From an uncultured virus (IMG/VR IMGVR_UViG_3300030107_004098) (Duplodnaviria; Heunggongvirae; Uroviricota; Caudoviricetes), in the IMG/VR virus record IMGVR_UViG_3300030107_004098: a stretch of 31,615 nucleotides of DNA. One strand, given 5' to 3'. The stretch's first letter is position 1, and each line of letters begins with the position of its first letter. The translations under genes and the position numbers were made by a program. This document shows positions 7,065 to 27,157 of this stretch, piece by piece. The notes beneath the pieces are model-generated. The model was not told the origin of the DNA, did not search any database, and saw nothing but the letters and a program-made list of their open reading frames with translations.

Positions 7065-7272
7065 TATGTTTAAAGATATACAGAAGAAGTTAGAACAATT
7101 AGTGGTAGAAATACCTAATATTATTGATACTACTATATCTCAAAATAAAGATATTGAGGAAATGAGTCAAGAATTACTTGGTGTAAAAATGTCTGACGAA
7201 ATTGTTGCTAAAGTAACGGAAGAAGAAATTACAAATAAAATAGTTAATATGCTTAAGGAGGCTTTTGAATGA
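7057..7272 (+). CDS. Small helical hypothetical protein
   Basis: Overlaps both neighbours, consistent with translational coupling; 71 aa. Confidence 0.6.
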   Translation: MINMFKDIQKKLEQLVVEIPNIIDTTISQNKDIEEMSQELLGVKMSDEIVAKVTEEEITNKIVNMLKEAFE

Positions 7273-7904
7273 GTTGGTTTGAAGTCATAAAACGAGTTGG
7301 AAAACTAAAGAAAATCCAAATGAAATTTTTTAGACCTGCTGTATTAAGGGCGTTTAAAGACGTTGATAGATTAGATAGTAATAACCTAATTAAAGATTAT
7401 CTGGATGATGTTTTTGACGAATACGAAAGATTACTAAGATTAGAATATGCAGGTATGAGTAACTACCCAAGTATAATTAGTCAACATGTAAATAAATATA
7501 GAAATTCTAGAAGGACAAATGCTACAATAGCAAACGTTTTACGACATAATGGTTGGGAAGGCGCTACAAGAAACAATAGAACTATGATTCGTAAAGAATA
7601 TAAGATACTTAAAAGAAAAAGAATTGACTATGATAAGTTTAAAGAAGCGGTTAAAATAGCAGGAGATAAATTTTCTACCGATGAAAAAATAAATTTTACT
7701 GCATTTGGAGAAGATGCTAAAGTATTTATGAAAATCGCTAGACAGGCTTATGCTAAATTGACTGGTAGTGGTCAACACGCAAACAAAGTATTTAGTTGGG
7801 ATGCTCGCACAGGTAGATTACCATTAATTAAGAAAATATTATTTAATCACGGGTGGGATGATGAAAGTACAAATAAAGAAATAATTTTAGTTAAGGTGAT
7901 ATAA
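7269..7904 (+). CDS. Basic hypothetical protein with an MSWxxxIK leader and two tandem homologous halves
   Basis: ATGA and TAATG overlaps with neighbours. The halves share SQHVNK/GQHANK and IANVLRHNGWE/IKKILFNHGWD. Confidence 0.7.
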   Translation: MSWFEVIKRVGKLKKIQMKFFRPAVLRAFKDVDRLDSNNLIKDYLDDVFDEYERLLRLEYAGMSNYPSIISQHVNKYRNSRRTNATIANVLRHNGWEGATRNNRTMIRKEYKILKRKRIDYDKFKEAVKIAGDKFSTDEKINFTAFGEDAKVFMKIARQAYAKLTGSGQHANKVFSWDARTGRLPLIKKILFNHGWDDESTNKEIILVKVI

Positions 7905-8545
7905 TGGCGGTAACAGAAGACGAAACAACTTCACTTATTACAATACTTAGTGAAAACTGGGCGGCTGCTTGTACTGCTTTAGATACTACAAATGGTAATG
8001 GACAAATAGCAGATATACACGCAGTAACTCCACAAATACTAGATATTAGAAATATGAATTCTGGTAAAAACACTGACGCTCAAGGACGTGCTCGTGGTGG
8101 TAATAGAATTAATACTTCTAAAGTAGAAACAGGAAATAGGGCTGCAGGAACTCCTGAACCTATTTATTCTAATGATTTAATTATTATTTCCCAAAGTTCA
8201 CAAACTGTAAATTACCCTACAGTATTTTGGGATTCCCGTGATGAAGAACACCAAATGGAAATTTGGATTCGCACACGACAGGACGATAGAACACTAACTA
8301 ATGGAACTAAGGTTTCACCTAATTCGGGAACTTTTGGTATAGACCGAATCCGAAGCCTTTATATTATAGTTAGGTATATAATCGAATTAAGGCGTAAAGG
8401 CTATATCAAAAGTGGCTCGTTATATCAAGGAATAAATCATATGATTTTAGGTGGAAGAACGGAAAGTAACGATAAGCGGAATAAATTATTTGGATATAAA
8501 GTAAGTATTACAATGAGAAGATTAGCACAAGGCGTTACATGTTAA
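7904..8545 (+). CDS. Putative tail terminator/tail completion protein
   Basis: Immediately upstream of the tail tube; AGGTGAT RBS; alpha/beta pattern (LITILSENW...MEIWIRT...FGYKVSITM). Function is inferred mainly from gene order. Confidence 0.5.
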   Translation: MAVTEDETTSLITILSENWAAACTALDTTNGNGQIADIHAVTPQILDIRNMNSGKNTDAQGRARGGNRINTSKVETGNRAAGTPEPIYSNDLIIISQSSQTVNYPTVFWDSRDEEHQMEIWIRTRQDDRTLTNGTKVSPNSGTFGIDRIRSLYIIVRYIIELRRKGYIKSGSLYQGINHMILGGRTESNDKRNKLFGYKVSITMRRLAQGVTC

Positions 8546-8561
8546 AAAGTAGGTAAGTAAA

Positions 8562-10907
8562 ATGTCGACAGCAGAAGTGTGGATGGGTTCAGGAGTAACA
8601 ATGACTATGATTCCTGAGTCAAAATTGTTTTTAGGATATATGCCGTTTGGCCCAACATTAGGTAGAGATGATACAACGAAAGCGAATTTAATTAAATATT
8701 CGGTTGGTTTTTCAGTTAATGGAAGTAGCCTAACTATGGCTAATATTCTAGGAGAAGGAACTCCTGCTGTAAATCATTTTTCTGAAAAGTATCATTTAGT
8801 TCCCGGATTATATGCCGGTTGTACTGCCGAATTTTGGTATACTACTGATTCTTCAACTGCTGCTACTTTACAATTTACTGCTACTGTTGCAGATAACGAT
8901 GAAGATGCTATTTACTTTGCTGGAAATATTGATGACTTTCCTACTCTTTGGGCGCAACATGATGATATGGTTGGAACAAATTCAAAACTTACAGTAGCAC
9001 ATGCTAGTGGAACTGGTGCTGGTGGTGCTAGAGGTTATATTATGTTACAAAAACATGGAGCAGTAGTTCCTGCACCTTTAACTCTTGAAGAAAGAATTAA
9101 TTCACTTTCAGATACAATAGCAGCAGATGAAGACGTAATAACTTGTTCTGCCGGTCAAGGTGATGTAGAAAATGTAAAAGCACATGATTTAATATATGGT
9201 GCTGATGGTGATTTATTAGGTAGAGTTTGGGGCATTAATGCTAGCGGAACTTCACCTTCAACAAGAAGTAATGGAACTACAAGTAGTACAAAAATTCATC
9301 CGGTTTCTGGTGCTATTGATACTGCCGATGACCAAACCGTAGGTGGTAGTAACTTTAGTGGTATTTATGCCTTACAAGTTAATAGCGCAGATTTAAGAGG
9401 AACTTTTACTGCTGGTGATTTTATTTCAGGAAATAACGTAGATACTTTATTAGGAGTTATTTATCATACTTCTTATGATGGAACTAATACTAGTTTATAC
9501 GTAGCGCGTGTTGGAACTAGCACAATTTCAGACACAAATAACTTATTTTGGGGAAGAGATATTGCTGCTGGTGCAACAACATCTGCTACTTTATCTACTG
9601 GAGCGATTAGAACTTTATCAGATAACTGGTTAGGATTAGTAGATTCTGCTACTCCTTCTACCACTGATGTTTCTGTTGAACCTAAAATGATGGCTATTGG
9701 TGGAACTAGAAATGCTACTTATCATCTAAAGGGTATGGAAACTGCTGGTTCTGCTAGTTTAGATGTTACATTAAATCATGGAACTTGGCTTCATTATGCT
9801 TTGGGTTCTACTACTTTAACATTCCCAACCGTAACAGGTAGTTATCTTACAGACCCGTTTGATATAGGTAGTGCTACTAGTGAACACAAAACATTAGTCG
9901 CTACTTTAGGTTCTTCCGCCGCAGTTGCAGGTAATACAGATGGTCCATTATTTCATAGAGTATTAAAAGGAACAGATGCTATTTGTCCACCACTATTGCC
10001 GGGAACTGCTGCAAAAGAAATTACAGAACCTACTGTTGGTGGAGATGGTTTAATGGATAACGGTTTCATATACACTTTTACAGAAAGAAATGATAGCACA
10101 TTACCTTCTTTTGCTTTTGAATTAGTAGCAGAAAAAGGTGGAAATGTTGCGTCTATTCCTCAAGTAGATAGAGGAACAACCACAAGACAGGATAGCACAA
10201 CTTTTGCTACAAAAGATACTGCATATGCACAAATTCATCCGGGAGCAACAATGGAAAGTATGAGTTTAACTGCTGCCGCAGATTCTGCTGTTACTGCTAG
10301 TATGAGTTTTAATGTTAAAACAGCGTTTGAATGTCCTGAAGGATATATTGGTAGAGCATACGATGCAACAAATAACGACACTAGTGGAGCACAATTACCT
10401 AGAGTTCTAAATAACTTTGGACAAACTACAGGACTTAGTACGGCAGTAGAACAAGAATTTATAACTCCTTATTATTTTAGTGATGGAACAATTAGTTTAT
10501 TCGGTAGTGAGTTTATGCGAGTTACTAATTTTGGATTAACTATTAATAACGGATTAACAGATAAAAGATATATAGGTCAATATAATAAAAGAATAAAAAG
10601 TGTAGTTACAGGAACTAGAGATTATAGTATTGATATAACTGCTCAACTAACAGACCGTAGATTATTTGCTGAACTAAGAAATGAAGAATCTTTCCGCAGT
10701 GCTATGAGTCATTCAAATATTCAGTTACTATTAGAGAAACCCACTGGAGAACGAATTAAATTACAATTTGATGACTTCATGGTATCTGTTGCTAACTTCC
10801 CCGGACCTACTGATGACCGAGGACCGCTAGAAGTATCATTTACTATTATGCCTATACGTAAAGGCACGACTATTGATACAAAAACTGCATGGGTTCTACA
10901 AGGATAA
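8562..10907 (+). CDS. Tail tube (major tail) protein with accessory domains, 781 aa
   Basis: Tube-like motifs: NWLGLV, GTWLHYALG, YTFTE...LPSFAFE, GATMESMSLTA, RVTNFGLTINNGL, GTRDYSIDIT, GPLEVSFTI. Followed by chaperone and tape measure genes. Confidence 0.75.
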   Translation: MSTAEVWMGSGVTMTMIPESKLFLGYMPFGPTLGRDDTTKANLIKYSVGFSVNGSSLTMANILGEGTPAVNHFSEKYHLVPGLYAGCTAEFWYTTDSSTAATLQFTATVADNDEDAIYFAGNIDDFPTLWAQHDDMVGTNSKLTVAHASGTGAGGARGYIMLQKHGAVVPAPLTLEERINSLSDTIAADEDVITCSAGQGDVENVKAHDLIYGADGDLLGRVWGINASGTSPSTRSNGTTSSTKIHPVSGAIDTADDQTVGGSNFSGIYALQVNSADLRGTFTAGDFISGNNVDTLLGVIYHTSYDGTNTSLYVARVGTSTISDTNNLFWGRDIAAGATTSATLSTGAIRTLSDNWLGLVDSATPSTTDVSVEPKMMAIGGTRNATYHLKGMETAGSASLDVTLNHGTWLHYALGSTTLTFPTVTGSYLTDPFDIGSATSEHKTLVATLGSSAAVAGNTDGPLFHRVLKGTDAICPPLLPGTAAKEITEPTVGGDGLMDNGFIYTFTERNDSTLPSFAFELVAEKGGNVASIPQVDRGTTTRQDSTTFATKDTAYAQIHPGATMESMSLTAAADSAVTASMSFNVKTAFECPEGYIGRAYDATNNDTSGAQLPRVLNNFGQTTGLSTAVEQEFITPYYFSDGTISLFGSEFMRVTNFGLTINNGLTDKRYIGQYNKRIKSVVTGTRDYSIDITAQLTDRRLFAELRNEESFRSAMSHSNIQLLLEKPTGERIKLQFDDFMVSVANFPGPTDDRGPLEVSFTIMPIRKGTTIDTKTAWVLQG

Positions 10908-10910
10908 CTG

Positions 10911-10930
10911 CATAAGGTTTATTAATAAAA
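10911..10930 (+). promoter_or_regulatory. Possible archaeal-type promoter (TATA-like TTTATTAA)
   Basis: Intergenic CATAAGGTTTATTAATAAAA about 35-40 nt before ATG 10959; resembles CATTAAGTTTATAA at 2262-2275. Confidence 0.4.
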
Positions 10931-10958
10931 GGCGTATTGCTAAGGTTAGTGATTAACT

Positions 10959-11336
10959 ATGAGTTACACAATAGCCACAGATAAAAGCAAATTGCTAGTT
11001 TCACGACAAGCAACTGAGCATTATGTTAGAATCGCTCCCGGTAGCGACGAGTACCTAAAAATTTGGATTAAGGAACCTACATTCCTACAACTAGAACAAG
11101 CGCAAATGAAATTATTTGATTTCAATGCTGGTTCACAAGAAGTAAACTTAGATATGTCGGAAGTATACCGTTATCTTTGGGATGCCTTTGTGGAAAAGAC
11201 CGAGCCTGCCCTTAGTGCTATGGATGTATTAGGACTTAATCCCTATATCGGCTCACAAATTAAGGAGATTTTACCAAATCCCTTTGATTTTAGTGAGGTG
11301 GATGAGGATTTAAAAGTGCCTACCGTCGAGCAGTAA
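10959..11336 (+). CDS. Tail assembly chaperone (gpG-like)
   Basis: Between tail tube and tape measure genes; ends just after a slippery heptamer. Confidence 0.75.
   Translation: MSYTIATDKSKLLVSRQATEHYVRIAPGSDEYLKIWIKEPTFLQLEQAQMKLFDFNAGSQEVNLDMSEVYRYLWDAFVEKTEPALSAMDVLGLNPYIGSQIKEILPNPFDFSEVDEDLKVPTVEQ
11309..11315 (+). other. Programmed -1 ribosomal frameshift site T-TTA-AAA
   Basis: X XXY YYZ heptamer in the correct phase (GAT TTA AAA). The -1 frame is open for 22 codons (SAYRRAVRTGKIENPQIASRIV) into the ORF annotated at 11381. Confidence 0.8.
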
Positions 11337-11566
11337 GAACAGGAAAAATAGAAAACCCACAAATTGCATCGAGGATAGTTATGTATACTTTAGCGAAAGA
11401 ATTGAATATTCCACCCCATGAGTTAGGGAATTATCCCGCCTCGTTAGTATCTGACTTAATGTTAATTTTTGCAGAAATTAAAGAATTTGAAGCCGAATCA
11501 ATGGATAAGGTTACAAAAAATGCAAAAAAAGGTATGGGTAGTACAGACGGGGTTAACTTTGGGTGA
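11315..11566 (+). CDS. Tail assembly chaperone frameshift extension (gpT-like part of a G-T fusion)
   Basis: -1 frame continuation; LAKELNIPPHELGNYP is a typical gpT-like pattern. Confidence 0.7.
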   Translation, partial: SAYRRAVRTGKIENPQIASRIVMYTLAKELNIPPHELGNYPASLVSDLMLIFAEIKEFEAESMDKVTKNAKKGMGSTDGVNFG

Positions 11567-11573
11567 TTAGAAT

Positions 11574-13190
11574 ATGGTTGATTTAGATAGTACTTCTAAA
11601 AAATTAACTGGTAAAGTTACAAAGTTACCAAATAGTAGTTTAAAATCTACTGCCGAGAGTATGGCTTTAATTGCTGAAACATCTATTTTAACAAATCAGG
11701 CTTTAGAACAAATTGTAAAAAATACTACCAACTTAAAGAAAGAAACTGAAAAGGCCAAAAAGGAATCATTTAAATTAGCCAGAGGTTTTTCTAAATTATA
11801 TAAAACAAGTGATGAAAACCCTGCTTCTAAATTTATGAAAGATTTTGGTGACCAATGGCAGGTAATTCGGCGGTTTTCTTCTAGGTTTTTACCGGGATTT
11901 TGGAGTTTTCAAAATGCTTTAGTTGGGTTAATGAAGCAAACTGAAGTTATATTAAATTGGTGGGATAGGAAGGGTACGCGCGGAACAAAGATGTTTGGAG
12001 GAATAAAAAAAGGTTTTAATCGTTTAACGGGCGGTATGAAAAATATATATGAAGAAGAACTAATTGTTAGTGATGAACTTAAACGAGGTAAAACATCTAG
12101 TGATGAACTTAAAGGTGGAAGGTTTGGTAAAGGTAATTGGCTAAGACGGGCATTAAGAAAAAAAATAGGTCCTGATGATTATACTGATTTAGACGATTCT
12201 GCGATGATGCAAAGATACGGCGGAAAAGAAAAATTATTTTCGACTAAACGAGCAAAAGATAGATTTCAAAGATTAAGAGATAAAATAACATTATGGAAAA
12301 GTAAAAGCATAATTAAATTTAAGAAATATAGAGAAAGATTATCAAAGGTAAGATGGGATGTTTTCTTTAAAACCTTTATGAGAGTAGCAGGAATAGTATT
12401 AAAATTCGTAGTAGCCTTCTTTGCAGCAATTTTTATACTTAAGGCATTTAAAATAGATGAAGTACTAAAGGGTATTTGGGACACTGTTGTTCTTATGGTT
12501 AAAGCGGTAATATTTGGTGTTACTAAAATTATAGAAGGTGGTGGTAACATTCTTGGCGGTATTATGGATTTATATTATTCATTCAACGATATTCTAAGCG
12601 AAGGTAACTGGAAACCATTTTTAGATGCTTTATGGAGAATTGGTAAAGGTGTATTACAGGTAGTAGGAGGTATTATATGGACAGTATTAGGACCAATTAT
12701 TGATGGAATATGGGGATTATTAAAACATACATTATTTGATTGGGTTACAAGTTTTTGGGGTGACGCTGAAACATGGTGGCAAAAAACACTAATATTGATA
12801 CAAGTTGGAGTAACTGCGATGTTAGCAATAGCGGCATTTTGGGCTGCACCAACATATATAGTAGGTATAATAGCAGCAGCAGTAGTTACCGCTATAGGTT
12901 TTGCTTTAGGTAGATTAATTCCCGGAAGGTCTATGGGTGGACCTGCTAGTGGTCTTACATTAGTAGGTGAAAAGGGACCAGAGTTAGTAAATCTACCTAG
13001 CGGTTCAAATGTTTATAGCAATAGCGAATCAAAAAGAATATCCGCCGGAACTACTAATAATATCACTGTAAATGTTCAAGGTAGAGTCGGAGCATCAGAT
13101 TCTGAACTTAGGGAAATAGCACAAAAAGTTGGTAGAATGATTAATCTAGAACTTAATAGAACAACAAGCACAAGGACAAGGGGAGCATAA
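11574..13190 (+). CDS. Tail tape measure protein (short, 538 aa)
   Basis: Follows the chaperones. Contains amphipathic W/F/G-periodic helices, hydrophobic segments and the common C-terminal motif GGPASGLTLVGEKGPELVNLPSGSNVYSN followed by NNITVNV. Confidence 0.85.
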   Translation: MVDLDSTSKKLTGKVTKLPNSSLKSTAESMALIAETSILTNQALEQIVKNTTNLKKETEKAKKESFKLARGFSKLYKTSDENPASKFMKDFGDQWQVIRRFSSRFLPGFWSFQNALVGLMKQTEVILNWWDRKGTRGTKMFGGIKKGFNRLTGGMKNIYEEELIVSDELKRGKTSSDELKGGRFGKGNWLRRALRKKIGPDDYTDLDDSAMMQRYGGKEKLFSTKRAKDRFQRLRDKITLWKSKSIIKFKKYRERLSKVRWDVFFKTFMRVAGIVLKFVVAFFAAIFILKAFKIDEVLKGIWDTVVLMVKAVIFGVTKIIEGGGNILGGIMDLYYSFNDILSEGNWKPFLDALWRIGKGVLQVVGGIIWTVLGPIIDGIWGLLKHTLFDWVTSFWGDAETWWQKTLILIQVGVTAMLAIAAFWAAPTYIVGIIAAAVVTAIGFALGRLIPGRSMGGPASGLTLVGEKGPELVNLPSGSNVYSNSESKRISAGTTNNITVNVQGRVGASDSELREIAQKVGRMINLELNRTTSTRTRGA

Positions 13191-18300: not shown

Positions 18301-21300
18301 GTGTTAACTTTATTACAGGAACTAATATTGATAGAATTACTGGCGCACATGTTAGTGATTTGCCCGGTTCTAAGGGTTCGGGCTATACTGGTTCAGATGC
18401 CGTTAACTCACTAGGTTATTCTATATCTAATTCGGTAGAGATGGATGATAACCTATCACCCGAAGTATTTAGAATATACAATAGTGGAACAGATACAACC
18501 GCAGAAAGTATTGCTACGGTTTCTTCAATGTCTGACTATGAAATTATAGACATGGAGAAAATAGATGATGATATGAACAAAGTTACAGTTGCCCCTCTAT
18601 TACCTGTAGTGTTAGGTAGAATAGATTATAACACTTCTACTGATAAAGGAATTACTGCTGCTGCTGGGGCATACACAGAAACCGTGGGCATTTATTTAGT
18701 AAATGTAAATGGTCTACCTCAAGGTGGGTTTATTCATGTATTGAATTCTGAAACAGTTGATGGTAAACCTATTACATTTATGGGAAAATTATTAAATGAT
18801 ACAAATACAAGTTCTGTAGAAACTTACTCCAATTTTATTCAAAGATATGGTCCTAGTATATATCGTTATGTGGATTTGGAAACTGGAAATCCCGGTGAAA
18901 TATACTTTAATGATGAAATAGCAAATAGAGTTACAGGAACTGCTAAAACCGCAGTTGCTGGATTCGTAGGAGTTCCAATATACAAAGATGATAAAGGTAG
19001 AATAATGGCCCATGCAACAGGTCTTAAAATTGGTGGGTATGGTTCTAGTCAATATTATATTGATAATGATTTTGATAATGAAGCATCTTTGTCTTTCTAT
19101 AAGGATGGACCTTTTGAAATGCGTGGGCCTTTACCTATATTGGGTAGTAACTTCTATGATACCACAATAGAACCTGTTGAATTAGCCAGTGGTGAGAGAC
19201 GAGATACAAGTAATACAAGTAACGCATTTGAACGTAGATGGTATGATATTCTTGAGGATATTGATTTTAATAATGATAAAACAGCATTTGAATTATTAGA
19301 CCCTAAAACTCCTAATATGTTCTTATTATGTAGTGGGGATATATTACCTGATAGTAAAAAGAGAGTAACACATATTGGTGGAGTACAAAGAAATCTTACT
19401 GATTATTCAATTATATTTAAAGGAAAGCCTGAAAGAGAAATTGGTCAAACTCATCAAAAATATAGCGGTGCGTTAAAAACTAATATAGTAACTGATGAAA
19501 AATTCGTAGCACGACCTATTAGTAGTGCTAGCACAACGTCGAATAATATTAACAGATTTGGTATTATTAGATTAGTAGAAATGACTATGGACTGGCATTT
19601 TAATCCGGTAGATATAGAGAATATTCGTAAGAATGATTCATACAAAGATTTTACTAGTTCAGGTATTGCATACAACCAATACCCATATATTTTAGATGGT
19701 AAGGATAAAGACACTTTCACAGATAGAGGGCTACATGGTTCTAATCAAGTAACTATGACTGTTGTTAATAGTCAAAGTACGGATTCATATATTACACTTA
19801 ATAATGCTACTAATTTAGCAATACCTAGAGATTATCTTAAACAAACATTTGCTCATGTTCCGCGAGGGCACGACCAAAAAATTAGATTTGTTAAATCTAG
19901 AAGTTTTACTACTAGTGTTACATTTACTAATGGTAGCACTAGTTGTACTGGAGCCGCTAATACTTTAAGAATTGCAGCCGGAATGACTGTAACCGTAGGT
20001 AGTGATAGTCAAACAGTTGCGTCCGTTAGTACTGCTAATATAACAGCATTTACTTTGTCTGGTAATTGGGGTGGAAGTAGTGGAACACAAACTGCTACCT
20101 TTAGTTGGGACTATGCGTATTCGGATTTTACTACAGAAAGTAGTGGAACTTCTAGAGCAGTAAGAGGACTAGTTATAAGAAATAAGCGCACTAATGAATA
20201 TGCTACTATTTCTACTGTCGAAGTAGATGGAACACATGTAATACTTGATTTAGTCGCGGGTCCTAGTGGTGTAGATGGCTACATGATGAGTGAATTTAAA
20301 TTTGATGATGTTTTAGAATTAGCACCTATTCATGTTTATGATTATAGACGTGATGGACACGCAAGACGTGAAATAGGTATGGTTGCTAAATATCAAGGAA
20401 CCACATTAGCCTTAACTACTGAGAATCAATTTTTTAACGGTTTTAACAATTTAAATATGCTAAACCATACTCAAACATTACATAGTGACTTCGAAATACT
20501 ATTCAAATGGTTTAGTAAAAAATTAGAACCTCATTCAGATACATTCAGTAATGATATTAAAAATTTCAATAAGCATTTAATTACAGGTAATTTAATTTCA
20601 CCATATTATTTTAGTGATAAAGCATATGGGGCTGCTTGGAATAATGAAATTTTACCTAACCAAATAGCCCAACCTTTGTTATTATCACTACCCACTAGTT
20701 ATACAGTGATTGGTGATTTTAACTCTACTACTAATACATTTACTAGAACAGGTGGAGATGATATTAGAGGGTTAGGTATTACTAGTGTAGCAATTACTGG
20801 TTCTAGTAACGGTTCAAATAATGCTACTGAAACAATATCAGAAAACGGTCTTGATGCTGATGGAAACCAACTATTGACTTTTAGTACGGGTATTGCTGGA
20901 ACAACCACTGATGATGAAGTTACGTTTACAATAACTAGGGCAGATAATAGTGCAGGTGTAGGGCTTGGTATATCTCCATTTAGAAATATTAACTACGCAC
21001 TACATCGTGGGTCGTCTAGAGTAATTAACGATTTAATTGATACTAACTATAAAATAAATGATATATTTGGAACTACTGCTTCTCCTTCCACAGTTACAAT
21101 TCAAGTAACTGGTCAATTTTATAACAGTGGTGAGAAGTTTACTAGAACTGCTGGGAATAGCCTTGCGGATTTAAAGCCGGGTAGGAAAATAACTATTGCT
21201 GGAACATCTTCGCATAACGGCGATTGGGAAGTATACAGCGTTAGTGGAAATGATGTTGTATTAAAAGATACTTCTAATACTGTGGCTGATGAGGCAAGTG

Positions 21301-24122
21301 GTGATTTTACCATTACATATAGTGCTATAAGTAATTACTTAGGTAGTGAACATAAACTACATACTCCCAGAGAGTTTGCTTTTGATGATAGAATGGGAAC
21401 TAGAAATTCATTTGGTAGTAGTACAAAAACTAGAGAAAACTTAATTGGTGTGGTTACTAAGCAATATCCTATATTTAATTATGATGATGAAATACCTACT
21501 ATGTATGACTTAGAGGCGGGTAACTTTACAATAGCAGATGAGTTCCTAAAAACAGAATTAGAAACTAGAACTTGGGGTGTGGGTGCTAGTGTGTATGGTA
21601 TTACTATTAGTGCAATTGTAGATAAAGAAGACGAAGATTACTTTTCCGTAGAAAATCAAATAATGCGAGGGCTGGCTGAAGGAAAACCCATATATACGGC
21701 TGGTCTAGGTAATGCTGATATTTATGGGGCTACTGACGTATATACACTTATTACAGATAGTGCATCTGTCCCCGTTGCTATATCAGCATTAAAAGATAAT
21801 TTACTACATGGTAGGTCACCTGCTGAATTAGATTACTCAGGCGATACTAACGGAACAGGTAGAGGTGTTTCTATACAAACCGGTTCTGCTGTTTCTCCTG
21901 TATTACCTGCTGTAAGGGCTATACCAACTAGAGTAAATAACGGTATGACTTTCCCAATTGCAGGAGCAGGACTTAATAGAGGTAATCTTAATTGTTGGTG
22001 GTTAGCGACACAATATGGACCCTCTCATCTGGCTGCTTATACTTTTAGATATTATAAACAAGGTTCCACTACTACTATTACAGATAAACTACCCATGAAT
22101 CTTAATACTGGTAACTTACTGGGTTACGCGAGTAATTCTAATGATGTTGGAACAAATAAGGTAAACTCCCTTTATTATGGTAGAACTAACGCTGATAAAA
22201 ATAATAGGATTAAAACACAAGTATCTGGAGCAGAAGTATTCTATAAACCTGTATTAAATACAGATGGTGCCGATATTGTTGANNNNNNNNNNATTGTTGA
22301 TGCGTATGTATATACTAGTGCAGATGGTAAAATGCGAGGAAGAGTAATAATTGATGTATACAATGCTAACGATAGCACTAATTATACCCATAAATTAGAA
22401 CATGCTAATGAAACTGAAATGCATAATAGATGGATTCATTTCTGTCCTAACTTAGCAGGTAATTATCTTGTTAGTGAAGCGGGAACTAATTTTGATACCA
22501 GCGTATCAACCAGTAATAGAAATATACATAATAATATTCCTACTAGTATTCATAAGATAGTTAATCATAGAATAGCCAGAGCAATACAAACATCTTCTAA
22601 CAATGAGTATTACAGACATATTATTGATATTGATAACGTTAGTGGTAGTCATGGTGACGCATTAGCCTTAACTGGTTTTTATCGAGTAATGAGAATTAGC
22701 CAAGATACCTTCTATGACTTTACACCTAATGAAATTAAAGTAAACTGCCTATCTAAGAATTATTCTAAAATTCCATATGTTGATGCTTGCTTTTCTACTA
22801 TTGATAACTTTGGACTACACGATGATGGACCAATAGATGATATTACTGATATGTATAACGAAGGACTTTTATCCATGTTTATGTTCGTAGAAGTAGACGG
22901 TAGAGGTAGTGTAAGTTATACAGATGTAAGAACACCATCACAAATGGTTCATGATACAGGAGCAGATGGTAGATTAAAACCTAACCAAATATACAATATG
23001 TTCTTAACAGATGGACACAACAAACACCTTACAACTATGACTGTAACTAACACTGCTACCAAACCAAAACTACTATTCGGTGAGATGAAAAAGATGAACG
23101 GTGTTGTATCTGTTGGTGAGACATTTACTGTAGATGTATTTAGACCACCATCCTTTAGAACCAATAGGGCCGCAATTGGTGTAAACTTACACGTAGTAGA
23201 TGAGGCTGAACAGGTAATTAATGACTTATTTGAGAGAACAGATATTACCTATACTACAACGACTGACGCTTCTAAATACTTTGAAGCATTCGATGTACAA
23301 GGCTTAGATTCGTTTGCTGCTGCTAACTTAGTTGCTGGACTAAAAGATAGAAGAGTTATAGTTGACGGTAAAGAAGTTAAACTTGTAAAGAATCTAGAAA
23401 CTATAGATTATACAGATATTGTCTTTTCAGAGAATTCAACATATAATAGAGTAGTTAATATAAGTAGAGATAATACGTTATATGACTTCTTTAACGAAAT
23501 TACTGTATATGGTAACGGAGTTAAATCAACAGTAAGAGATAGTCGTAGTATTAAAGAACACGGATTAAAACAATTAGAAGAAGTCGACTTAACAATTATT
23601 ACAAAAGAAGCCGCATACCGTAAAGCAAAAAAATTACTTAAAGTACATAGAGAAGCAAATAACGGTATTAAGTTAACTACACTATATACAGTTTGTCCAT
23701 TCCTAAAACCGGGACAAATTATTACAGTTAGTTACCCTTCTCAGAAGATACCCAGAAACGATTATGTTGTATTGGAAATTGATTACGAGATAGGTAACGG
23801 GTTAATAGAAATTACCGCAGGTGTATATACAAAAAACCTAACTAACCGTATTGCAGAATTGGTTTCAAATAACAAAAAGACGGATGCTGCTCTAAGGGGT
23901 AATAGACAGGAAGCAGATGATTTAGGAACAATGAGTCAAGCATCAGTAAGAGTACGTGGTGTTAAACTTAAAATATCAGATGTGACTAGTTCAGGTGGTA
24001 GTTCAAGTGTATTTGGGTTTGGTAGTACGTATGGTTTTAGTGCAACATTTGGATTTAGTGGAAGTGGGTCTGGAAGCGGACCCGCTACTAAGGTAACTCG
24101 CAGGGAGTATGATTTAATATGA
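15366..24122 (+). CDS. Giant tail tip/baseplate hub-adhesin protein (~2900 aa; spans a 10-N gap)
   Basis: Hub-like segments VVFDGSVE...YEISGRDDLGKL and NEITVYG...SIKEHG...FLKPGQIITV...YVVLEIDY flank ~1900 aa of Thr/Ser/Gly/Asn-rich modules. Confidence 0.75.
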   Translation: MTLHVLDINGGAGSSVDYTASAPTGVGGNASVNPTIVEYNTSGSEFTNHINCFEIHKTRNNHSTSNAGTHITNNITTANFMNRAFPAHPNNHTTFLENVHATPGYRVRSSTTISLTAGYDHFVLLYADDGDLHHFAKITELVTYDTAGDGFEFEPRLKQDIPKGTKFEVYRGPQTTNTNVVAVGYGLRAGTNTDKHNHIVNVSRNTFYFYNDRIDNANNDELAHNTKYEVKKSRYTGSTTVTTNFCFLTTFPNTKFDSSNSVTGRLLDKSRFSHKVKIVDNSLIRDRAQDGTWYNNYAGSATGSYTFNATSWDTCYLNGSRETYTTSSTTATGTKNGPDNYVRYVTSPEQSRRFDTLTSANISKSINVSGNYAEITLMDAEKILDEKIKLNDDMKVRVDVTKQKFGGLYDVFLPGDVYTTSSASELEFRHLTKSQDLTKILSAPGTLRIGDYIYSISSIASKSGDSQIVTVRGKISSGDVSYYTGASSGGGNTTLDAAIHETLSGVKAYRRAWNPSLKNLMVNFPIDTEITSGTYATAVIKKHDATITNSQSDMANIEIEVFDTQFGEGRFTITAADKHNSYAEITDYAETYYQLPADYRFRTPNANFVANIIDLVNSSAQVVNVVFDGSVEVINSKVENGILSYEISGRDDLGKLLSRINNKKYLYSDDFVYSSEPPLGTWINTNFGYVPGSNNADILKPNSQTTTGTFAASTNRFTYVSGTNFSNLEVGMTVTITNAEDSTNNATVTINEISGSTGYLTLSSVSADESNDEITITVDSHPTTIEAKDATASITKGDLIFYKDNSGSGEHRMIFLGVANSDRADVTAITTTGTFNASANTFTYVSGTNFSTLEKFMSVAITNAVDSGNNRTATILNISSDTGVLTLDSVVADETNDEVTLTIVGLPLTFVDKLAVDMNIAENITTGTNFTSRLAAEVDSKSNNILWALRGNFSLGKSLISDPTASSFPSNIRGAMDKGVNFITGTNIDRITGAHVSDLPGSKGSGYTGSDAVNSLGYSISNSVEMDDNLSPEVFRIYNSGTDTTAESIATVSSMSDYEIIDMEKIDDDMNKVTVAPLLPVVLGRIDYNTSTDKGITAAAGAYTETVGIYLVNVNGLPQGGFIHVLNSETVDGKPITFMGKLLNDTNTSSVETYSNFIQRYGPSIYRYVDLETGNPGEIYFNDEIANRVTGTAKTAVAGFVGVPIYKDDKGRIMAHATGLKIGGYGSSQYYIDNDFDNEASLSFYKDGPFEMRGPLPILGSNFYDTTIEPVELASGERRDTSNTSNAFERRWYDILEDIDFNNDKTAFELLDPKTPNMFLLCSGDILPDSKKRVTHIGGVQRNLTDYSIIFKGKPEREIGQTHQKYSGALKTNIVTDEKFVARPISSASTTSNNINRFGIIRLVEMTMDWHFNPVDIENIRKNDSYKDFTSSGIAYNQYPYILDGKDKDTFTDRGLHGSNQVTMTVVNSQSTDSYITLNNATNLAIPRDYLKQTFAHVPRGHDQKIRFVKSRSFTTSVTFTNGSTSCTGAANTLRIAAGMTVTVGSDSQTVASVSTANITAFTLSGNWGGSSGTQTATFSWDYAYSDFTTESSGTSRAVRGLVIRNKRTNEYATISTVEVDGTHVILDLVAGPSGVDGYMMSEFKFDDVLELAPIHVYDYRRDGHARREIGMVAKYQGTTLALTTENQFFNGFNNLNMLNHTQTLHSDFEILFKWFSKKLEPHSDTFSNDIKNFNKHLITGNLISPYYFSDKAYGAAWNNEILPNQIAQPLLLSLPTSYTVIGDFNSTTNTFTRTGGDDIRGLGITSVAITGSSNGSNNATETISENGLDADGNQLLTFSTGIAGTTTDDEVTFTITRADNSAGVGLGISPFRNINYALHRGSSRVINDLIDTNYKINDIFGTTASPSTVTIQVTGQFYNSGEKFTRTAGNSLADLKPGRKITIAGTSSHNGDWEVYSVSGNDVVLKDTSNTVADEASGDFTITYSAISNYLGSEHKLHTPREFAFDDRMGTRNSFGSSTKTRENLIGVVTKQYPIFNYDDEIPTMYDLEAGNFTIADEFLKTELETRTWGVGASVYGITISAIVDKEDEDYFSVENQIMRGLAEGKPIYTAGLGNADIYGATDVYTLITDSASVPVAISALKDNLLHGRSPAELDYSGDTNGTGRGVSIQTGSAVSPVLPAVRAIPTRVNNGMTFPIAGAGLNRGNLNCWWLATQYGPSHLAAYTFRYYKQGSTTTITDKLPMNLNTGNLLGYASNSNDVGTNKVNSLYYGRTNADKNNRIKTQVSGAEVFYKPVLNTDGADIVXXXXIVDAYVYTSADGKMRGRVIIDVYNANDSTNYTHKLEHANETEMHNRWIHFCPNLAGNYLVSEAGTNFDTSVSTSNRNIHNNIPTSIHKIVNHRIARAIQTSSNNEYYRHIIDIDNVSGSHGDALALTGFYRVMRISQDTFYDFTPNEIKVNCLSKNYSKIPYVDACFSTIDNFGLHDDGPIDDITDMYNEGLLSMFMFVEVDGRGSVSYTDVRTPSQMVHDTGADGRLKPNQIYNMFLTDGHNKHLTTMTVTNTATKPKLLFGEMKKMNGVVSVGETFTVDVFRPPSFRTNRAAIGVNLHVVDEAEQVINDLFERTDITYTTTTDASKYFEAFDVQGLDSFAAANLVAGLKDRRVIVDGKEVKLVKNLETIDYTDIVFSENSTYNRVVNISRDNTLYDFFNEITVYGNGVKSTVRDSRSIKEHGLKQLEEVDLTIITKEAAYRKAKKLLKVHREANNGIKLTTLYTVCPFLKPGQIITVSYPSQKIPRNDYVVLEIDYEIGNGLIEITAGVYTKNLTNRIAELVSNNKKTDAALRGNRQEADDLGTMSQASVRVRGVKLKISDVTSSGGSSSVFGFGSTYGFSATFGFSGSGSGSGPATKVTRREYDLI
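17478..18071 (+). repeat. Two diverged ~219-bp direct repeats (17478-17696 and 17853-18071) encoding a 73-aa module
   Basis: TTTGTFAASTNRFTYVSGTNFS...ADESNDEITIT versus TTTGTFNASANTFTYVSGTNFS...ADETNDEVTLT; shared DNA GTTAGTGGTACGAATTTTAG. Confidence 0.9.
22283..22292. other. Assembly gap (10 N)
   Basis: Run of N flanked on both sides by ATTGTTGA. Confidence 0.98.
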
Positions 24123-24487
24123 TAACAGAAAAGGCTATGGAAATGCTTAGGGACTATATACAAACTACATTCTTATTTTATAATGTAGGTCGTGGTGGAG
24201 ACACTACAGGAATTAACGCTACAAGTTTAGATGCACCTATTAATGCTACTAACTTTAATAACAGCACAGGTAGCATAACAACAGATAAGACGGGTCTAAC
24301 GTCTTTGGATTTTACAATAACTTTAAATGGCTCTGACTATGTAGGAGAGATAATAAGAGAGGTAGGTATTTTTGATAGTGCTACATTGGCTTCTGCTAAC
24401 ATGCTCATCAGAGTTCCTTTTAATGCAATTGGACCGCTTACCGCTAGTGATACAATAGAATTAGTTGTAACAGTGGATGTGATTTAA
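24119..24487 (+). CDS. Small tail tip/fibre-attachment protein
   Basis: IREVGIFD...MLIRVPF resembles tail-collar/fibre N-terminal domains; coupled to both neighbours. Confidence 0.55.
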   Translation: MITEKAMEMLRDYIQTTFLFYNVGRGGDTTGINATSLDAPINATNFNNSTGSITTDKTGLTSLDFTITLNGSDYVGEIIREVGIFDSATLASANMLIRVPFNAIGPLTASDTIELVVTVDVI

Positions 24488-25920
24488 TGGTTAACTACGT
24501 AAACAGAATTAGCACTTTAGCACAAGACCCTGCCGCCGGTGCTACTGATGGTTTAATTGATGAAACGGATAAAATACACACAGGTATAGTTAAGGCATTA
24601 GAGGCCAGAAGTCAAGGTAACTATGTAATTAGTATGGGAACATTGGCGCAAACAGACGGTGGTAGTAATACAACCTTTACTATTAATGGTGGAACTACAA
24701 ACTTAGTTTACAAAAGAAACGGAAAGGTAATTACAATTTCTTCAAATAAAACAGTAAACCTGACTAACAAATCTTCATCTGATAGATACGACATGTTAGT
24801 TATTACTGACGATTCTGGAACTTTAGCAATTAGAGCAGGAACATTAAGTGGTACTAGTGCCTTAGTTCCAGAACTAACTTTAGGTGATGTTCCTGTAGCC
24901 CTTATTCAAGTTCTCGCTGCTTCGGATAATGATGTAACTAATAGACATATTCAATTCTTCGGCACAGATAAACGTGAGGATGAAATTACTATCGCTTGGA
25001 ATAATTCGGAAGTGTATACTAAAACTGCTACTATTTCTGCTTCTGCGAATACTGCTACTATTGCAGCAGAATCGGGAGCAGACGTTAAAGTTAAATTAGC
25101 CGGAACTGCGGCAGGTGATACTTTTGAAGTTATTGATTCTGCATCCCAAGTACAATTTAAAGTACAAGGTGATGGTGCAGTTTCTGTACCTAATGGAACC
25201 TTTACTGCTGGTACTGTTACTGCTGGAACAACAGTTGTACAAAGTAGTGACTCTACAACAAACGCAGTTGTTTTACCATTTAAGATTAGTGAAGTAACTT
25301 CAGGAACTCCTGCTGTTGGTTTAGGAGTAGGAATGCAGTATGAGGTAGAAACTTCAGCCGGTAATAATGAAATAGGTGCTATTACAGATGCACAAGTAAC
25401 TAATGTAAGTAGTGGTAGTGAAACTTTTAAATGGAATCTTAGTGTGATGAATGGTGGAAGTTTAGTAACTTATTTAACAGTAGAAAGCGGTATGTTTTCT
25501 CATCCTTCTTCGGCAGCATTTTCTCAACCTTATCTGAATTTACCCGATGATAGTTTACAGTCAGATGCTGATGCTAATAACGCATCATTACAATTTGGTA
25601 GATTTCAATTACCCGATGTTCAAGCGGCATCTGATAATTTTATAAATTTGCCGCCACTTAGCGGCGTATATGATGGGCAGATGATTACTGTTAAAAATAT
25701 TACTACTAATGATTTAATCATTAAAGGGGCTGGTAGCGATACAATTGATTATGGTAGCACCGCTAACGCTATGATAAGTTCTGGAAATACAGTAACTTTA
25801 GGTTCTGCTATGGCTATAACATTTCAATCAGTAAAAGCAATAGCCACAGTAGCATACACAAATGCAATTGCTGCGGGTCCAGAAGTTAGTACATGGATAG
25901 TAGTAAGTCAAACAGCGTGA
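24487..25920 (+). CDS. Putative tail fibre/receptor-binding protein
   Basis: N-terminal DRYDMLV...VPELTLGDVPVALIQV anchor-like domain; C-terminal INLPP...DGQMITVKN...IKGAGSDTID beta domain typical of fibre/baseplate proteins. Confidence 0.6.
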   Translation: MVNYVNRISTLAQDPAAGATDGLIDETDKIHTGIVKALEARSQGNYVISMGTLAQTDGGSNTTFTINGGTTNLVYKRNGKVITISSNKTVNLTNKSSSDRYDMLVITDDSGTLAIRAGTLSGTSALVPELTLGDVPVALIQVLAASDNDVTNRHIQFFGTDKREDEITIAWNNSEVYTKTATISASANTATIAAESGADVKVKLAGTAAGDTFEVIDSASQVQFKVQGDGAVSVPNGTFTAGTVTAGTTVVQSSDSTTNAVVLPFKISEVTSGTPAVGLGVGMQYEVETSAGNNEIGAITDAQVTNVSSGSETFKWNLSVMNGGSLVTYLTVESGMFSHPSSAAFSQPYLNLPDDSLQSDADANNASLQFGRFQLPDVQAASDNFINLPPLSGVYDGQMITVKNITTNDLIIKGAGSDTIDYGSTANAMISSGNTVTLGSAMAITFQSVKAIATVAYTNAIAAGPEVSTWIVVSQTA

Positions 25921-25924
25921 TAAT

Positions 25925-26134
25925 ATGAGTTTAGAAGATGCGTTAAACGGTGACTTAGATGAAAAAGTCAATTGGTTAATTAATTCTCAAGTTGAAACTA
26001 ATAAAGATATAGAGAGTATTAAAGACAATCATCTTTCTCATATAGAAAAAGACATGGCTTTAATTAAATCTCGTATTTGGTGGATGACGGCATTTATTAT
26101 TTCAGTAGTTACAGGGCAGAACGTGATGTTATGA
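25925..26134 (+). CDS. Coiled-coil plus single transmembrane helix protein (XhlA/holin-like)
   Basis: IKDNHLSHIEKDMALIK is followed by hydrophobic IWWMTAFIISVV; lies after the tail genes. Confidence 0.55.
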   Translation: MSLEDALNGDLDEKVNWLINSQVETNKDIESIKDNHLSHIEKDMALIKSRIWWMTAFIISVVTGQNVML

Positions 26135-26913
26135 GTTGGGAAAACACAATAAAAAAAGACACAAGATACCCCAAAGGTAAAAAATTTAAGGAACAACAAG
26201 ATGCCTTAAATTGGAAAGCGAAATTATTAGCACAACGTCAACAAAAAACCAAAGACGAAAAAATAGATAAATGGTTTGATAATTTTAATAGTTGGCAAAG
26301 TAAAAATCCCGATACTAAAGATGTTCATGCAGATGTTATGGAACACATTTTAAATAATGCGCCGAATCGCGGACAGGGAGTACAGGAATATAGTAAAGAA
26401 GAAGTTCATGCTAAAGCAGATGAAGCCTTACAACTTTTAATGGCTAATAAAAGAATGGAGCCAGAAACATATGAAGGTTTTATTACTGAAAGATTATTTT
26501 CGCCTAAATTTAGAGACAGGTGGGTTTCTCTTAGCGACGTGCATGAAACTAGAAGAGAAGTATTTGATGATATGCAAAAACGTCTTAGCAGAAGAACATA
26601 TGATACTCCTTACCCGTGGACTATGGAAGGTAATTTAGAAGAAGGAACTGCTATAGTATATGATGATGAAGGTCCATTAGCAGGTGTTGCTATGATAATG
26701 AACGCACCCCAATACTTTTATATTATTTGGCCTACGAAAGATAAAGATAATATGCCTGACCCTAAAACATTTAATACTAGAAACTTGGGTACAAGCCCCG
26801 AATCACTTAGACAGAAACTTTCCCCTAACCCTTTTGAACCAAATAGAAAATTAGACCCTGAAACTAGTGAAACTGCTATGATGCGTGAATCTGAAAGGGA
26901 AAAATATGAGTAA
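26131..26913 (+). CDS. Hypothetical protein with an MSWxxxIK leader (260 aa)
   Basis: ATG 26131 overlaps the upstream stop (ATGA) and follows GTGAT, so it is preferred over the track start 26077. Begins MSWENTIKK. Confidence 0.7.
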   Translation: MSWENTIKKDTRYPKGKKFKEQQDALNWKAKLLAQRQQKTKDEKIDKWFDNFNSWQSKNPDTKDVHADVMEHILNNAPNRGQGVQEYSKEEVHAKADEALQLLMANKRMEPETYEGFITERLFSPKFRDRWVSLSDVHETRREVFDDMQKRLSRRTYDTPYPWTMEGNLEEGTAIVYDDEGPLAGVAMIMNAPQYFYIIWPTKDKDNMPDPKTFNTRNLGTSPESLRQKLSPNPFEPNRKLDPETSETAMMRESEREKYE

Positions 26914-27157
26914 TTCTCGTAAAATAAGGATTAGAAAGTGGTTTAGGGACCTAAAAGAGACATTATCTTGTGAAATTTGCGGAGAAGACCACCCATCTTG
27001 CTTAGAATTTCATCATTTACGCAAAAAAGATAATATAATTTCAAAAATGGTAGTTTCTGGCTATGCAATTGATTCAATTCAGAAAGAAATGGCTAAATGC
27101 CAAGTAGTATGTGCAAATTGCCATAGAAAAATACATTATGTTAAAGATTCTAACTAA
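26906..27157 (+). CDS. Small HNH endonuclease
   Basis: CEICG...LEFHH...CQVVCANCHRKIH is a Zn-binding HNH signature; probable start is ATG 26906. Confidence 0.85.
   Translation: MSNSRKIRIRKWFRDLKETLSCEICGEDHPSCLEFHHLRKKDNIISKMVVSGYAIDSIQKEMAKCQVVCANCHRKIHYVKDSN

What the first reader, a model, noticed from the sequence alone, without database searches (positions are those of the whole stretch)
7269..26157. Shared MSWxxxIK leader on unrelated inserted proteins: candidate capsid-targeting/processing system
Seen: two genes 19 kb apart start MSWFEVIKR (7269) and MSWENTIKK (26131), both from ATGAGTTGG and both overlapping the upstream stop. Their bodies are unrelated, charged and helical, unlike the Thr/Ser/Gly-rich structural neighbours, and they look inserted into the virion operon. 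Established: T4 internal proteins carry a short N-terminal capsid-targeting sequence removed by the prohead protease, and the HK97 capsid protein is cleaved after a Lys. Inference: W-x-x-x-[IL]-K is a portable leader that loads variable cargo, such as host-takeover or anti-defence effectors, into the head and is clipped at the Lys. Only two leaders are visible in this window, so support is limited.
Basis: partly seen in the sequence, partly recalled or inferred. Interest (0 to 1): 0.8.

Follow-up and report, generated by a model that had tools for sequence, protein, structure and literature searches.

The report
Shared N-terminal address tag in magroviruses
The two look-alike gene starts belong to a genome-wide system in these marine archaeal viruses, in which dozens of otherwise unrelated small proteins per genome begin with the same eight-residue tag, probably an address label for a common partner such as the assembling virus head.

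Summary
Both ORFs (7269, 26131) start MSW...IK. In 12 of 12 related magrovirus records the same start, M-[S/T/N]-W-[K/E/F]-[D/N]-[I/V]-[L/I]-K, heads 4-24 genes each, against 0-1 control matches. In one complete 94-kb relative, about 22 genes carry it where 0.075 are expected by composition.

Conservation stops right after the Lys. Ile, Leu and Lys codons vary synonymously. The bodies fall into 116 BLAST clusters among 186 proteins. Homologous bodies carry 0-100 residues of variable linker, yet the tag stays at the extreme N-terminus. In window gene A, a fusion of two tagged genes, the internal copy has decayed.

Tagged genes lie only on the structural-gene strand, some inside the head and tail modules. 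The tag was missing from the two haloarchaeal and two methanogen tailed-virus genomes checked. A codon-specific scan of 185,579 prokaryote genomes found no gene start with it.

So a portable leader is strongly supported. Capsid targeting with clipping at Lys is the best guess (about 0.4), but only circumstantially: an S78 prohead protease is present and the gene positions fit. I found no description of the tag in the searched literature.

The parts
7269..7292 (+). Leader of gene A: MSWFEVIK
   Evidence: An in-frame stop lies directly upstream and AAGGAGG lies 8 nt upstream. The leader is identical in homologues P0002 and P0003, which are 53-70% identical overall.
7269..7904 (+). Gene A (211 aa): leader, domain 1, decayed internal leader, domain 2. 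It is a fusion of two tagged paralogous genes of about 105 aa.
   Evidence: Alignment A1: P0003 is leader plus domain 1 only, and the single genes of L001 and L002 are leader plus domain 2. AF2: two confident domains at residues ~20-105 and ~120-211; residues 1-13 and 111-115 have pLDDT below 50. Possibly winged-helix-like, on weak evidence only.
7596..7613 (+). Relic of the second leader (EYKILK, residues 110-115) at the fusion joint
   Evidence: It aligns with MSWDKILK of the single-domain gene in L002. In the fused homologue P0002 it has degraded further, to SKSGVP.
7057..7272 (+). Conserved 71-aa gene upstream of A; its TGA overlaps A's ATG
   Evidence: Counterparts of 57-77 aa occur in L001, L002 and L003.
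26131..26154 (+). Leader of gene B: MSWENTIK
   Evidence: Close homologues read MSWKNTIK or MSWKYTIK. All 11 remote homologues also start with the leader.
26131..26913 (+). Gene B (260 aa): leader, helical module X (about residues 9-110), then alpha/beta module Y (about residues 110-240)
   Evidence: module X is shared with P0011 and P0015; module Y is shared with nine proteins of 147-202 aa. AF2: helices at 15-107, a sheet domain at 114-207, and pLDDT about 49 for the leader. No Pfam, PHROG, PDB or Foldseek match.
25925..26134 (+). 69-aa gene with a hydrophobic C-terminal stretch upstream of B; its TGA overlaps B's ATG
   Evidence: It has a homologue in G002, where no B-like gene follows.
26906..27157 (+). 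Small HNH-like endonuclease gene overlapping the end of B
   Evidence: Pfam AI2M-like_HNH, E 0.0014, below the curated cut-off. B and this gene are both missing at this place in G002.
3..1289 (+). Major capsid protein, 5'-truncated by the window edge. The invariant L-L-K-x-A-G lies at nt 63-80. I list it as a possible processing site only.
   Evidence: Pfam SU10_MCP. Alignments A3 and A7. That this is a processing site is inference, not shown.

Best explanation
The eight residues M-[S/T/N]-W-[K/E/F]-[D/N]-[I/V]-[L/I]-K form an autonomous, portable N-terminal address tag used by magroviruses (tailed viruses of marine group II archaea). My reading of the sequence is that it is a short amphipathic helix start, with a Ser/Thr/Asn cap, Asp/Asn three residues later, and Trp, Ile and Leu on one face. 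It is placed in front of a large, rapidly turning-over set of small soluble proteins of many different folds, at least about 20 per genome. Window genes A and B are two of these.

I think the tag docks all these proteins onto one common partner. I rate a protein-level tag recognised by a shared partner at about 0.9. The most likely partner is the assembling procapsid, that is the scaffold/protease or the inner capsid surface. Under that model the cargo is loaded into the head and delivered with the DNA, as with the capsid targeting sequence of T4 internal proteins. I rate this at about 0.4. The S78 prohead protease may remove the tag after the Lys; I rate that at about 0.25.

Shown here: the tag exists, it is selected at protein level, it depends on being N-terminal, it sits on unrelated bodies, and it is restricted to the structural-gene strand. 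Inferred only: the partner, the loading into heads, and the cleavage.
For: 1. Enrichment. G002 has 23 tagged ORFs against 0.075 expected. Ten further records gave 4-24 pattern hits each against control counts of 0-1. G001 gave 5 and G002 24.
2. Sharp edge. Residue counts relative to W, n=92: -1 S46/T16/N6; +1 K30/E26/F16; +2 D38/N21; +3 I62/V13; +4 L61/I19/V12; +5 K87/R5. From +6 onward there is no preference.
3. Protein-level selection. Ile, Leu and Lys codons in the tag follow genome-wide usage, and both MW.. and MxW.. forms occur.
4. Unrelated bodies. 186 tagged proteins fall into 116 BLASTP clusters, 95 of them singletons. The few family hits differ from each other: DUF5754, phrog_727/38880/3477, phrog_8582, phrog_7595, and weak winged-helix and SUKH matches. 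The A and B profiles align only over the tag.
5. The tag stays N-terminal. One winged-helix core follows the tag after 0, about 32, or 60-75 residues. B's module Y follows it after 10-100 residues in 9 relatives. In the fused gene A the internal tag has decayed.
6. AF2 does not pack the tag onto either body with confidence: pLDDT 45-49, helix at residues 3-9.
7. Link to morphogenesis. In G002, 19 of 77 structural-strand genes carry the tag against 0 of 52 on the replication strand (Fisher p 2e-5). Hits are one-stranded in all records. Tagged genes sit directly before the terminase gene, after the portal gene (682 aa, G001), in the head-tail joining slot (A), after the tail tube gene, and at the tail-module end (B).
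8. An S78 prohead protease with a scaffold-like extension lies next to the capsid gene in G002 (Pfam E 1.2e-10).
9. Cargo resembles T4 internal proteins. It is small (median 103-118 aa) and soluble (1 of 92 with a membrane-like stretch), and strongly charged (35 acidic and 33 basic of 92). A T4 review states that the diverse internal proteins share only a capsid targeting sequence (PMC3012670, passages read).
Against: - There is no direct evidence that any tagged protein is in virions or is cleaved.
- Twenty or more tagged species per genome, about a quarter of the genes on that strand, is many more than I recall for T4 (a handful of CTS proteins).
- Several bodies look like small DNA-binding proteins (winged-helix-like, Cys-rich, very basic). 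That would equally fit early regulators that never enter the head.
- The main block of tagged genes lies upstream of the terminase gene, at the start of the strand, and could be an early or middle operon rather than late genes.
- The tag-like F-D-I-[LV]-K at the protease domain end aligns with F-G-V-V-S in halovirus HVTV-1. It may simply be the last strand of the protease fold.
- L-L-K in the capsid protein sits after a conserved N-terminal segment, which is not typical of a discarded propeptide.
- [ILV][ILV]K tripeptides are common by chance.
- The residue after the Lys shows no preference.
- The specificity of this protease is unknown.
Confidence: 0.4

Rival explanations
1. The tag docks the accessory proteins onto a hub that has nothing to do with the capsid. 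Candidates are a conserved host machine (polymerase, proteasome/unfoldase, chaperonin, replication factor) or a non-structural viral protein. The cargo would then be host-takeover or regulatory proteins working inside the infected cell.
For: - Many bodies look like small DNA-binding or regulatory proteins: a winged-helix core, Cys-rich and very basic families, and weak winged-helix neighbours for A.
- Most tagged genes form a block of small genes at the start of the strand, upstream of the terminase gene.
- The tag is the same across clades whose capsid proteins are only 57-60% identical, which fits a conserved partner.
Against: - There are no tagged genes at all in the replication module strand.
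- Tagged genes also occur inside the head, neck and tail gene blocks.
- A codon-specific MSWEDILK scan of 185,579 prokaryote genomes found 2 matches, neither a gene start. No cellular clients with such a tag were seen, but only one codon version was scanned and host genomes were not searched degenerately.
Confidence: 0.25
2. The tag has no partner. It is a generic 'good start' module: a strongly capped first helix that improves expression, folding or N-terminal stability (for example escape from N-end degradation) of newly acquired or newly born small genes. It spreads because it works.
For: - The residues match a helix N-cap pattern: S/T/N, then D/N three residues on, with hydrophobic residues at i, i+3 and i+4. 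This is my reading of the counts.
- The tag sits on very young, fast-diverging and shuffled genes.
- There is a nucleotide-level preference at the second codon.
Against: - An invariant Trp and a near-invariant Lys (87 of 92, plus 5 Arg) at fixed spacing go beyond what helix capping needs.
- The tag is absent from the replication-strand genes of the same genomes and from related archaeal tailed viruses. Both would benefit equally from a generic stabiliser.
Confidence: 0.1
3. All tagged proteins descend from one ancestral gene. The N-terminal helix is simply the best-conserved piece of a single, highly diverged multigene family.
For: - Local paralogy does exist: the A family has tandem copies and a fusion.
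- Several clusters of related tagged proteins were found.
Against: - Profile comparison of the A and B families aligns only 9 columns.
- AF2 gives different architectures: two helix-rich domains for A, and a long helical module plus a sheet domain for B.
- The family hits are to different families.
- Homologous cores sit at variable distances behind the tag, and modules X, Y and Z are shuffled behind it.
- The internal copy decays after fusion.
Confidence: 0.08
4. The conservation acts on the RNA or DNA. It would be a translation-initiation or translational-coupling element, or the binding site of a translational regulator, and not a peptide.
For: - A follows the ATG in 55 of 63 tagged genes, against 103 of 246 other ORFs.
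- Ser at residue 2 is AGT in 33 of 37 cases, although AGT is only 27% of Ser codons overall.
- Many tagged genes overlap the upstream stop as ATGA, including both window genes.
Against: - Beyond the second codon the nucleotides are free. Leu is encoded by TTA, CTA, TTG, CTT, CTC and CTG; Ile by ATA, ATT and ATC; Lys by AAA and AAG, all in roughly genome-wide proportions.
- The distance from ATG to TGG varies (MW.. and MxW..).
- The amino-acid classes are what is conserved. This rival explains the S/T/N bias at residue 2, not the tag.
Confidence: 0.04

Closest known systems
Capsid targeting sequence (CTS) of phage T4 internal proteins
   Same: - A short conserved N-terminal peptide sits on otherwise unrelated, small, highly charged and rapidly diversifying proteins.
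- The virus assembles a procapsid with a scaffold and a prohead protease.
- A T4 review describes the internal proteins as a highly diverse set sharing only the CTS, which encapsidates them into the scaffolding core (PMC3012670, passages read).
   Different: - The host is archaeal and the virus lineage differs.
- The sequence differs. I recall the T4 CTS as ending in the gp21 site L/I-x-E; this was not checked in any call.
- The protease is S78 (HK97 type), not the T4 type.
- There are about 20 or more tagged proteins per genome rather than a handful.
- Tagged genes are spread over the whole structural strand.
- Packaging and cleavage are unproven here.
Encapsulin cargo-loading peptides
   Same: A short terminal peptide with a few conserved hydrophobic residues directs diverse cargo to the inner face of an HK97-fold shell. 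This is recalled, not checked in any call.
   Different: - Encapsulin peptides are mostly C-terminal, and the cargoes are a few enzymes.
- Here the tag is N-terminal, on more than 100 body types, in a true virus with a packaged genome.
- Binding to the shell is not shown.
Propeptides of head and ejection proteins in giant phages (SPN3US, phiKZ)
   Same: Many different internal head proteins are processed by one prohead protease. The abstract seen in the listing for PMC7411985 says the head holds about 50 proteins, of which 8 were known to be cleaved.
   Different: - As I recall, those propeptides are long and dissimilar, sharing only a cleavage motif.
- Here a fixed octapeptide lies at the extreme N-terminus.
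- The genome is about 94 kb.
Conserved leaders on hypervariable cores in ribosomal peptide natural products (for example prochlorosins)
   Same: One conserved N-terminal recognition sequence lets a single machine handle many divergent downstream sequences. This is recalled, and is an analogy of logic only.
   Different: Those leaders are longer, the cores are short peptides that get chemically modified, and they are cellular, not viral.

Membership tests
T4-type capsid targeting sequence system | The same short N-terminal peptide on otherwise unrelated proteins of one virus | tested here: met
   186 tagged proteins fall into 116 clusters. The A and B profiles align only over 9 columns. The motif edge lies directly after K.
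T4-type capsid targeting sequence system | The virus encodes a prohead protease and scaffold | tested here: met
   In relative G002 a 432-aa protein next to the capsid gene matches Peptidase_S78 (E 1.2e-10, 42.2 bits, cut-off 21) and has a charged helical C-terminal extension. The window itself starts inside the capsid gene, so its own protease gene is not visible.
T4-type capsid targeting sequence system | The tag ends in the protease's consensus cleavage site, which also occurs in scaffold and capsid protein | tested here: inconclusive
   F-[DN]-I-[LV]-K is conserved at the protease domain end in 7 of 7 magroviruses, and [IL]-L-K-x-A-G in 7 of 7 capsid proteins. These are short and common motifs. 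The former aligns with a fold element of HVTV-1.
T4-type capsid targeting sequence system | Tagged proteins are present in virions with processed N-termini, and the tag suffices to load foreign proteins | not testable with these tools
   This needs virion proteomics or a reconstituted assembly system.
Encapsulin-type cargo-loading peptide | The shell protein has the HK97 fold | tested here: met
   The window capsid protein matches Pfam SU10_MCP at E 4.3e-5 (23.6 bits, just under the cut-off of 24.1; G002 scores 30.7 bits). It also aligns with annotated haloviral and methanogen-virus major capsid proteins.
Encapsulin-type cargo-loading peptide | The terminal peptide binds the inner face of the shell protein | not testable with these tools
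   No usable computational answer was obtained. This needs binding or structural experiments.
Winged helix-turn-helix domain (body of A) | Significant sequence or fold match to winged-helix domains | tested here: inconclusive
   No Pfam or PHROG hit. Foldseek's best E is 0.18, with tandem winged-helix proteins among the weak rows. ESM Atlas neighbours are winged-helix clusters at TM 0.26-0.34.
Magroviruses (tailed viruses of marine group II archaea) | Genome of about 90-100 kb with a halovirus-like structural module, a ligase inside it, and a separate replication module | tested here: met
   - P0001 lies on a 93,615-bp contig.
- The gene order matches G002, with terminase, portal, ligase, protease and capsid genes plus an opposite-strand replication block.
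- The nearest named capsid proteins are haloviruses at 26-27% identity.
- The description is in PMC5434244 (passages read).
- The host assignment comes from that paper and was not tested here.

The most novel reading that the evidence does not exclude
Magroviruses, among the most abundant archaeal viruses in the surface ocean, use a virus-wide protein sorting code. A single N-terminal octapeptide addresses 20 or more different, rapidly evolving proteins per genome (over 100 body types across the group) to the procapsid. The virion would then deliver a large, customisable arsenal of host-takeover and anti-defence proteins together with its DNA. The tag would be the first cargo-loading signal described for an archaeal virus, and it would be usable to load foreign proteins into HK97-type capsids.
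Probability: 0.35. Interest if true: 0.9.

Novelty: new variant of a known kind. Interest (0 to 1): 0.8.

Why it matters
About a fifth of the genes on the structural strand of these very abundant, uncultured ocean viruses are 'hypothetical proteins' with no family. The shared tag groups them into one functional class and gives a concrete handle on them: one peptide, one presumed partner.

If the partner is the procapsid, this would be an archaeal counterpart of the T4 internal-protein system. It would also predict which unknown genes encode injected effectors.

If the partner is a host hub, it points to a central vulnerability of marine group II archaea. In either case the tag is a simple sequence marker for recognising magrovirus fragments and their accessory genes in metagenomes. 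The hypothesis can be tested with synthetic genes, without culturing the host.

Tried and rejected
- Direct homologue searches with A and B in IMG/VR by peptide patterns found nothing. Relatives were reached through the tail tube protein instead.
- tblastn of A and B against 50,697 phage records gave no match.
- Earlier-findings look-ups held nothing.
- The ESM Atlas gave no feature hit for A or B, and only weak structural neighbours for A.
- Foldseek against the PDB gave nothing at E<=0.001 for either model. A PDB profile search with the B family gave nothing.
- Complex prediction used G002's capsid protein, protease/scaffold and a 67-aa tagged winged-helix protein. The verdict was 'no answer' (score 0.00, controls not run). 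This is no evidence either way.
- Sequencing runs: 20 DNA holders, all marine or seawater metagenomes, and no RNA holder listed.
- A whole genome for the window is not held, so the tag count for this exact genome is unknown.
- Host genomes could not be scanned with a degenerate pattern.
- I considered whether the tag-like sites in the protease, capsid protein, portal and ligase mark cleavage sites. The ligase FDILK is, from recall, probably a ligase motif. The others are too short to carry weight.
- Chance similarity and pure nucleotide-level conservation were rejected on the counts.

Full report
**The observation.** Window 7269 and 26131 both read ATGAGTTGG and encode MSWFEVIKR... (A, 211 aa) and MSWENTIKK... 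(B, 260 aa). Each ATG overlaps the upstream TGA as ATGA. Neither protein matches Pfam or PHROGs. BLASTP of A against B, and a profile-profile comparison of their families, align only the first 9 residues.

The window is the structural half of a magrovirus-like genome. It runs capsid protein, head-tail genes, tail tube (Pfam Phage_tube_2), a likely tape measure, and a 2918-aa tail protein. It then meets the start of an opposite-strand replication module holding an ERCC4 nuclease and an exonuclease. The identical protein P0001 lies on a 93,615-bp contig.

**The motif is genome-wide.** Relatives were found through the tail tube protein. Upstream of it they carry further genes that start MSWETILK, MSWKNIIK, MSWDKILK, MWYNIIKQ and (GTG)SWENILK.

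In the complete 94,082-bp relative G002, 23 ORFs of at least 40 aa start with x0-2-W-x3-[IL]-K, all on one strand. One TTG case inside the ligase gene is probably spurious. Composition predicts 0.075, and the motif occurs internally only 7 times in 29,725 residues.

Ten more IMG/VR records gave 7, 7, 20, 16, 15, 7, 4, 7, 6 and 24 matches to ATG-NNN-TGG-N9-HTN-AAR. The reversed-pattern control gave 0-1 per record, and the hits were almost all on one strand. Four of the five records tested carry capsid proteins 57-60% identical to the window's. The sizes and completeness estimates of the others imply genomes of about 91-98 kb.

Of 123 distinct matches, 111 head ORFs of at least 40 aa or run off the locus.

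Two haloviruses and two methanogen-virus genomes, the nearest named relatives by capsid protein, gave 1, 1, 0 and 0 matches against controls of 1, 0, 0 and 0. A codon-specific MSWEDILK pattern found 2 places in 185,579 prokaryote genomes, and neither is a gene start.

**Anatomy of the tag.** In a census of 550 first-ATG ORFs of at least 50 aa, Trp is residue 3 in 87 and residue 2 in 18. It is residue 4, 10 or 15 in only 8, 5 and 11. Of those 104 ORFs, 92 carry W-x3-[ILVMF]-[KR].

| Position relative to W | Residue counts (n=92) |
|---|---|
| -1 | S46, T16, N6 |
| +1 | K30, E26, F16 |
| +2 | D38, N21 |
| +3 | I62, V13 |
| +4 | L61, I19, V12 |
| +5 | K87, R5 |
| +6 onward | no preference |

I read this pattern as a capped helix start with W, I and L on one face; that is inference.

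Ile, Leu and Lys codons in the tag follow genome-wide usage, so selection acts on the peptide. The second codon is different. A follows the ATG in 55 of 63 tagged genes, and Ser is AGT in 33 of 37 cases against 27% overall. This fits the frequent ATGA stop/start overlap.

**Portability.**
- 186 distinct tagged proteins fall into 116 BLASTP clusters, 95 of them singletons. The median length is 103 aa.
- The few family hits differ from one another.
- A winged-helix core follows the tag directly, after about 32 residues, or after 60-75 residues.
- A HMMER search of 1.84 billion representatives with B found 11 remote relatives at 15-32% identity in alignment A5.
  - All 11 begin with the tag. One reads IINK, and one was called with an upstream extension.
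  - B is tag plus module X plus module Y. Module X is shared with two of these relatives, which have a different C-terminal module. Module Y is shared with nine, which have 10-100 variable residues behind the tag.
- Gene A is a fusion of two tagged genes of about 105 aa that stand separately in relatives. The internal tag is reduced to EYKILK, and it is lost altogether in the fused homologue P0002.
- AF2 models give confident domains but pLDDT 45-49 for the tag, which is helical at residues 3-9.

**Link to the virion.** In G002, 19 of 77 called genes on the structural strand carry the tag, against 0 of 52 on the replication strand. Most tagged genes form a block of small genes directly upstream of the terminase gene. 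Others lie:
- after the portal gene (682 aa in G001),
- in a variable slot between two conserved head-tail genes, where A sits,
- after the tail tube gene,
- at the end of the tail module, where B sits next to an HNH-like gene; both are absent there in G002.

G002 encodes an S78 prohead protease with a scaffold-like extension beside the capsid gene. The cargo is soluble and either acidic or basic.

The tag-like F-[DN]-I-[LV]-K at the protease domain end and L-L-K in the capsid protein N-terminus are conserved in 7 of 7 magroviruses. They are short, and the first aligns with a fold element of HVTV-1. I count them only as hints.

**Comparison and novelty.** The closest known system is the T4 capsid targeting sequence on diverse internal proteins (PMC3012670, passages read).

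No paper in the library holds any of six tag strings. Two magrovirus papers showed no passage about a shared N-terminal sequence when searched for 'N-terminal', 'motif' and 'leader' (PMC5434244 and PMC11706807, find only). A four-term search on Poseidoniales virus motifs found nothing.

[quoted passage not shown] I did not verify that the cut follows a Lys.

**Verdict.** A real, strongly selected and apparently undescribed portable N-terminal tag. Its function is unproven. Procapsid targeting is the leading hypothesis.

Noticed in passing
window 1433-1660, several copies inside 15366-24122, and L001 10001-12589: A module of about 70 aa (..TGxFxASxNTFTxxSGT..ITNAxDxGNNxTxT..DExxDEVTLT..) recurs in three places: the 186-aa protein after the capsid gene, several times in the 2918-aa tail protein, and as an insertion in the tail tube protein of relative L001. 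It looks like a mobile surface domain shared by head and tail proteins.
   Followed up: partly
window 22283-22292: A run of 10 N lies inside the 2918-aa tail protein ORF. The frame stays open across it.
   Followed up: no
window 26906-27157: A small HNH-like endonuclease gene overlaps the end of B (Pfam E 0.0014, below cut-off). B plus this gene may be a mobile cassette at the end of the tail module. Neither is present at that place in G002.
   Followed up: partly
L029, L030, L059, L070 (alignment A2, columns ~40-60): The linker between the tag and the winged-helix core in longer family members contains an EF-hand-like loop (D-A-x-x-D-G-K-I-T-x-x-D-F) and Cys-rich stretches.
   Followed up: no
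G005 (IMG/VR record of 184,733 bp): The record is rated 100% complete but holds two capsid genes, 60% and 57% identical to the window's, about 91 kb apart. It is probably two different magrovirus genomes joined in assembly.
   Followed up: no
G002rc 76939-79701 and G001 13330-15462: An ATP-dependent DNA ligase gene sits inside the head module between the portal and protease genes, as reported for magroviruses (PMC5434244 passages). In G001 a GTG-started tagged ORF (VRWTTILK, 149 aa) lies directly in front of it.
   Followed up: no
G002rc 72659-75847 versus G001 9993-12041: The large post-portal protein carries a canonical tag in G001 (MDWEDIIK). In G002 it starts MKSETLIK, which is tag-like but lacks the Trp. 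Only the C-terminal ~150 residues are homologous, at 45% identity.
   Followed up: no
L010, L080, L025, L066 and others: Several very basic tagged proteins carry a conserved WPSAYASG..C motif or match DUF5754. They match internal stretches of long PHROG profiles (phrog_727, 3477, 38880). Similar modules may therefore be concatenated in other viruses.
   Followed up: no
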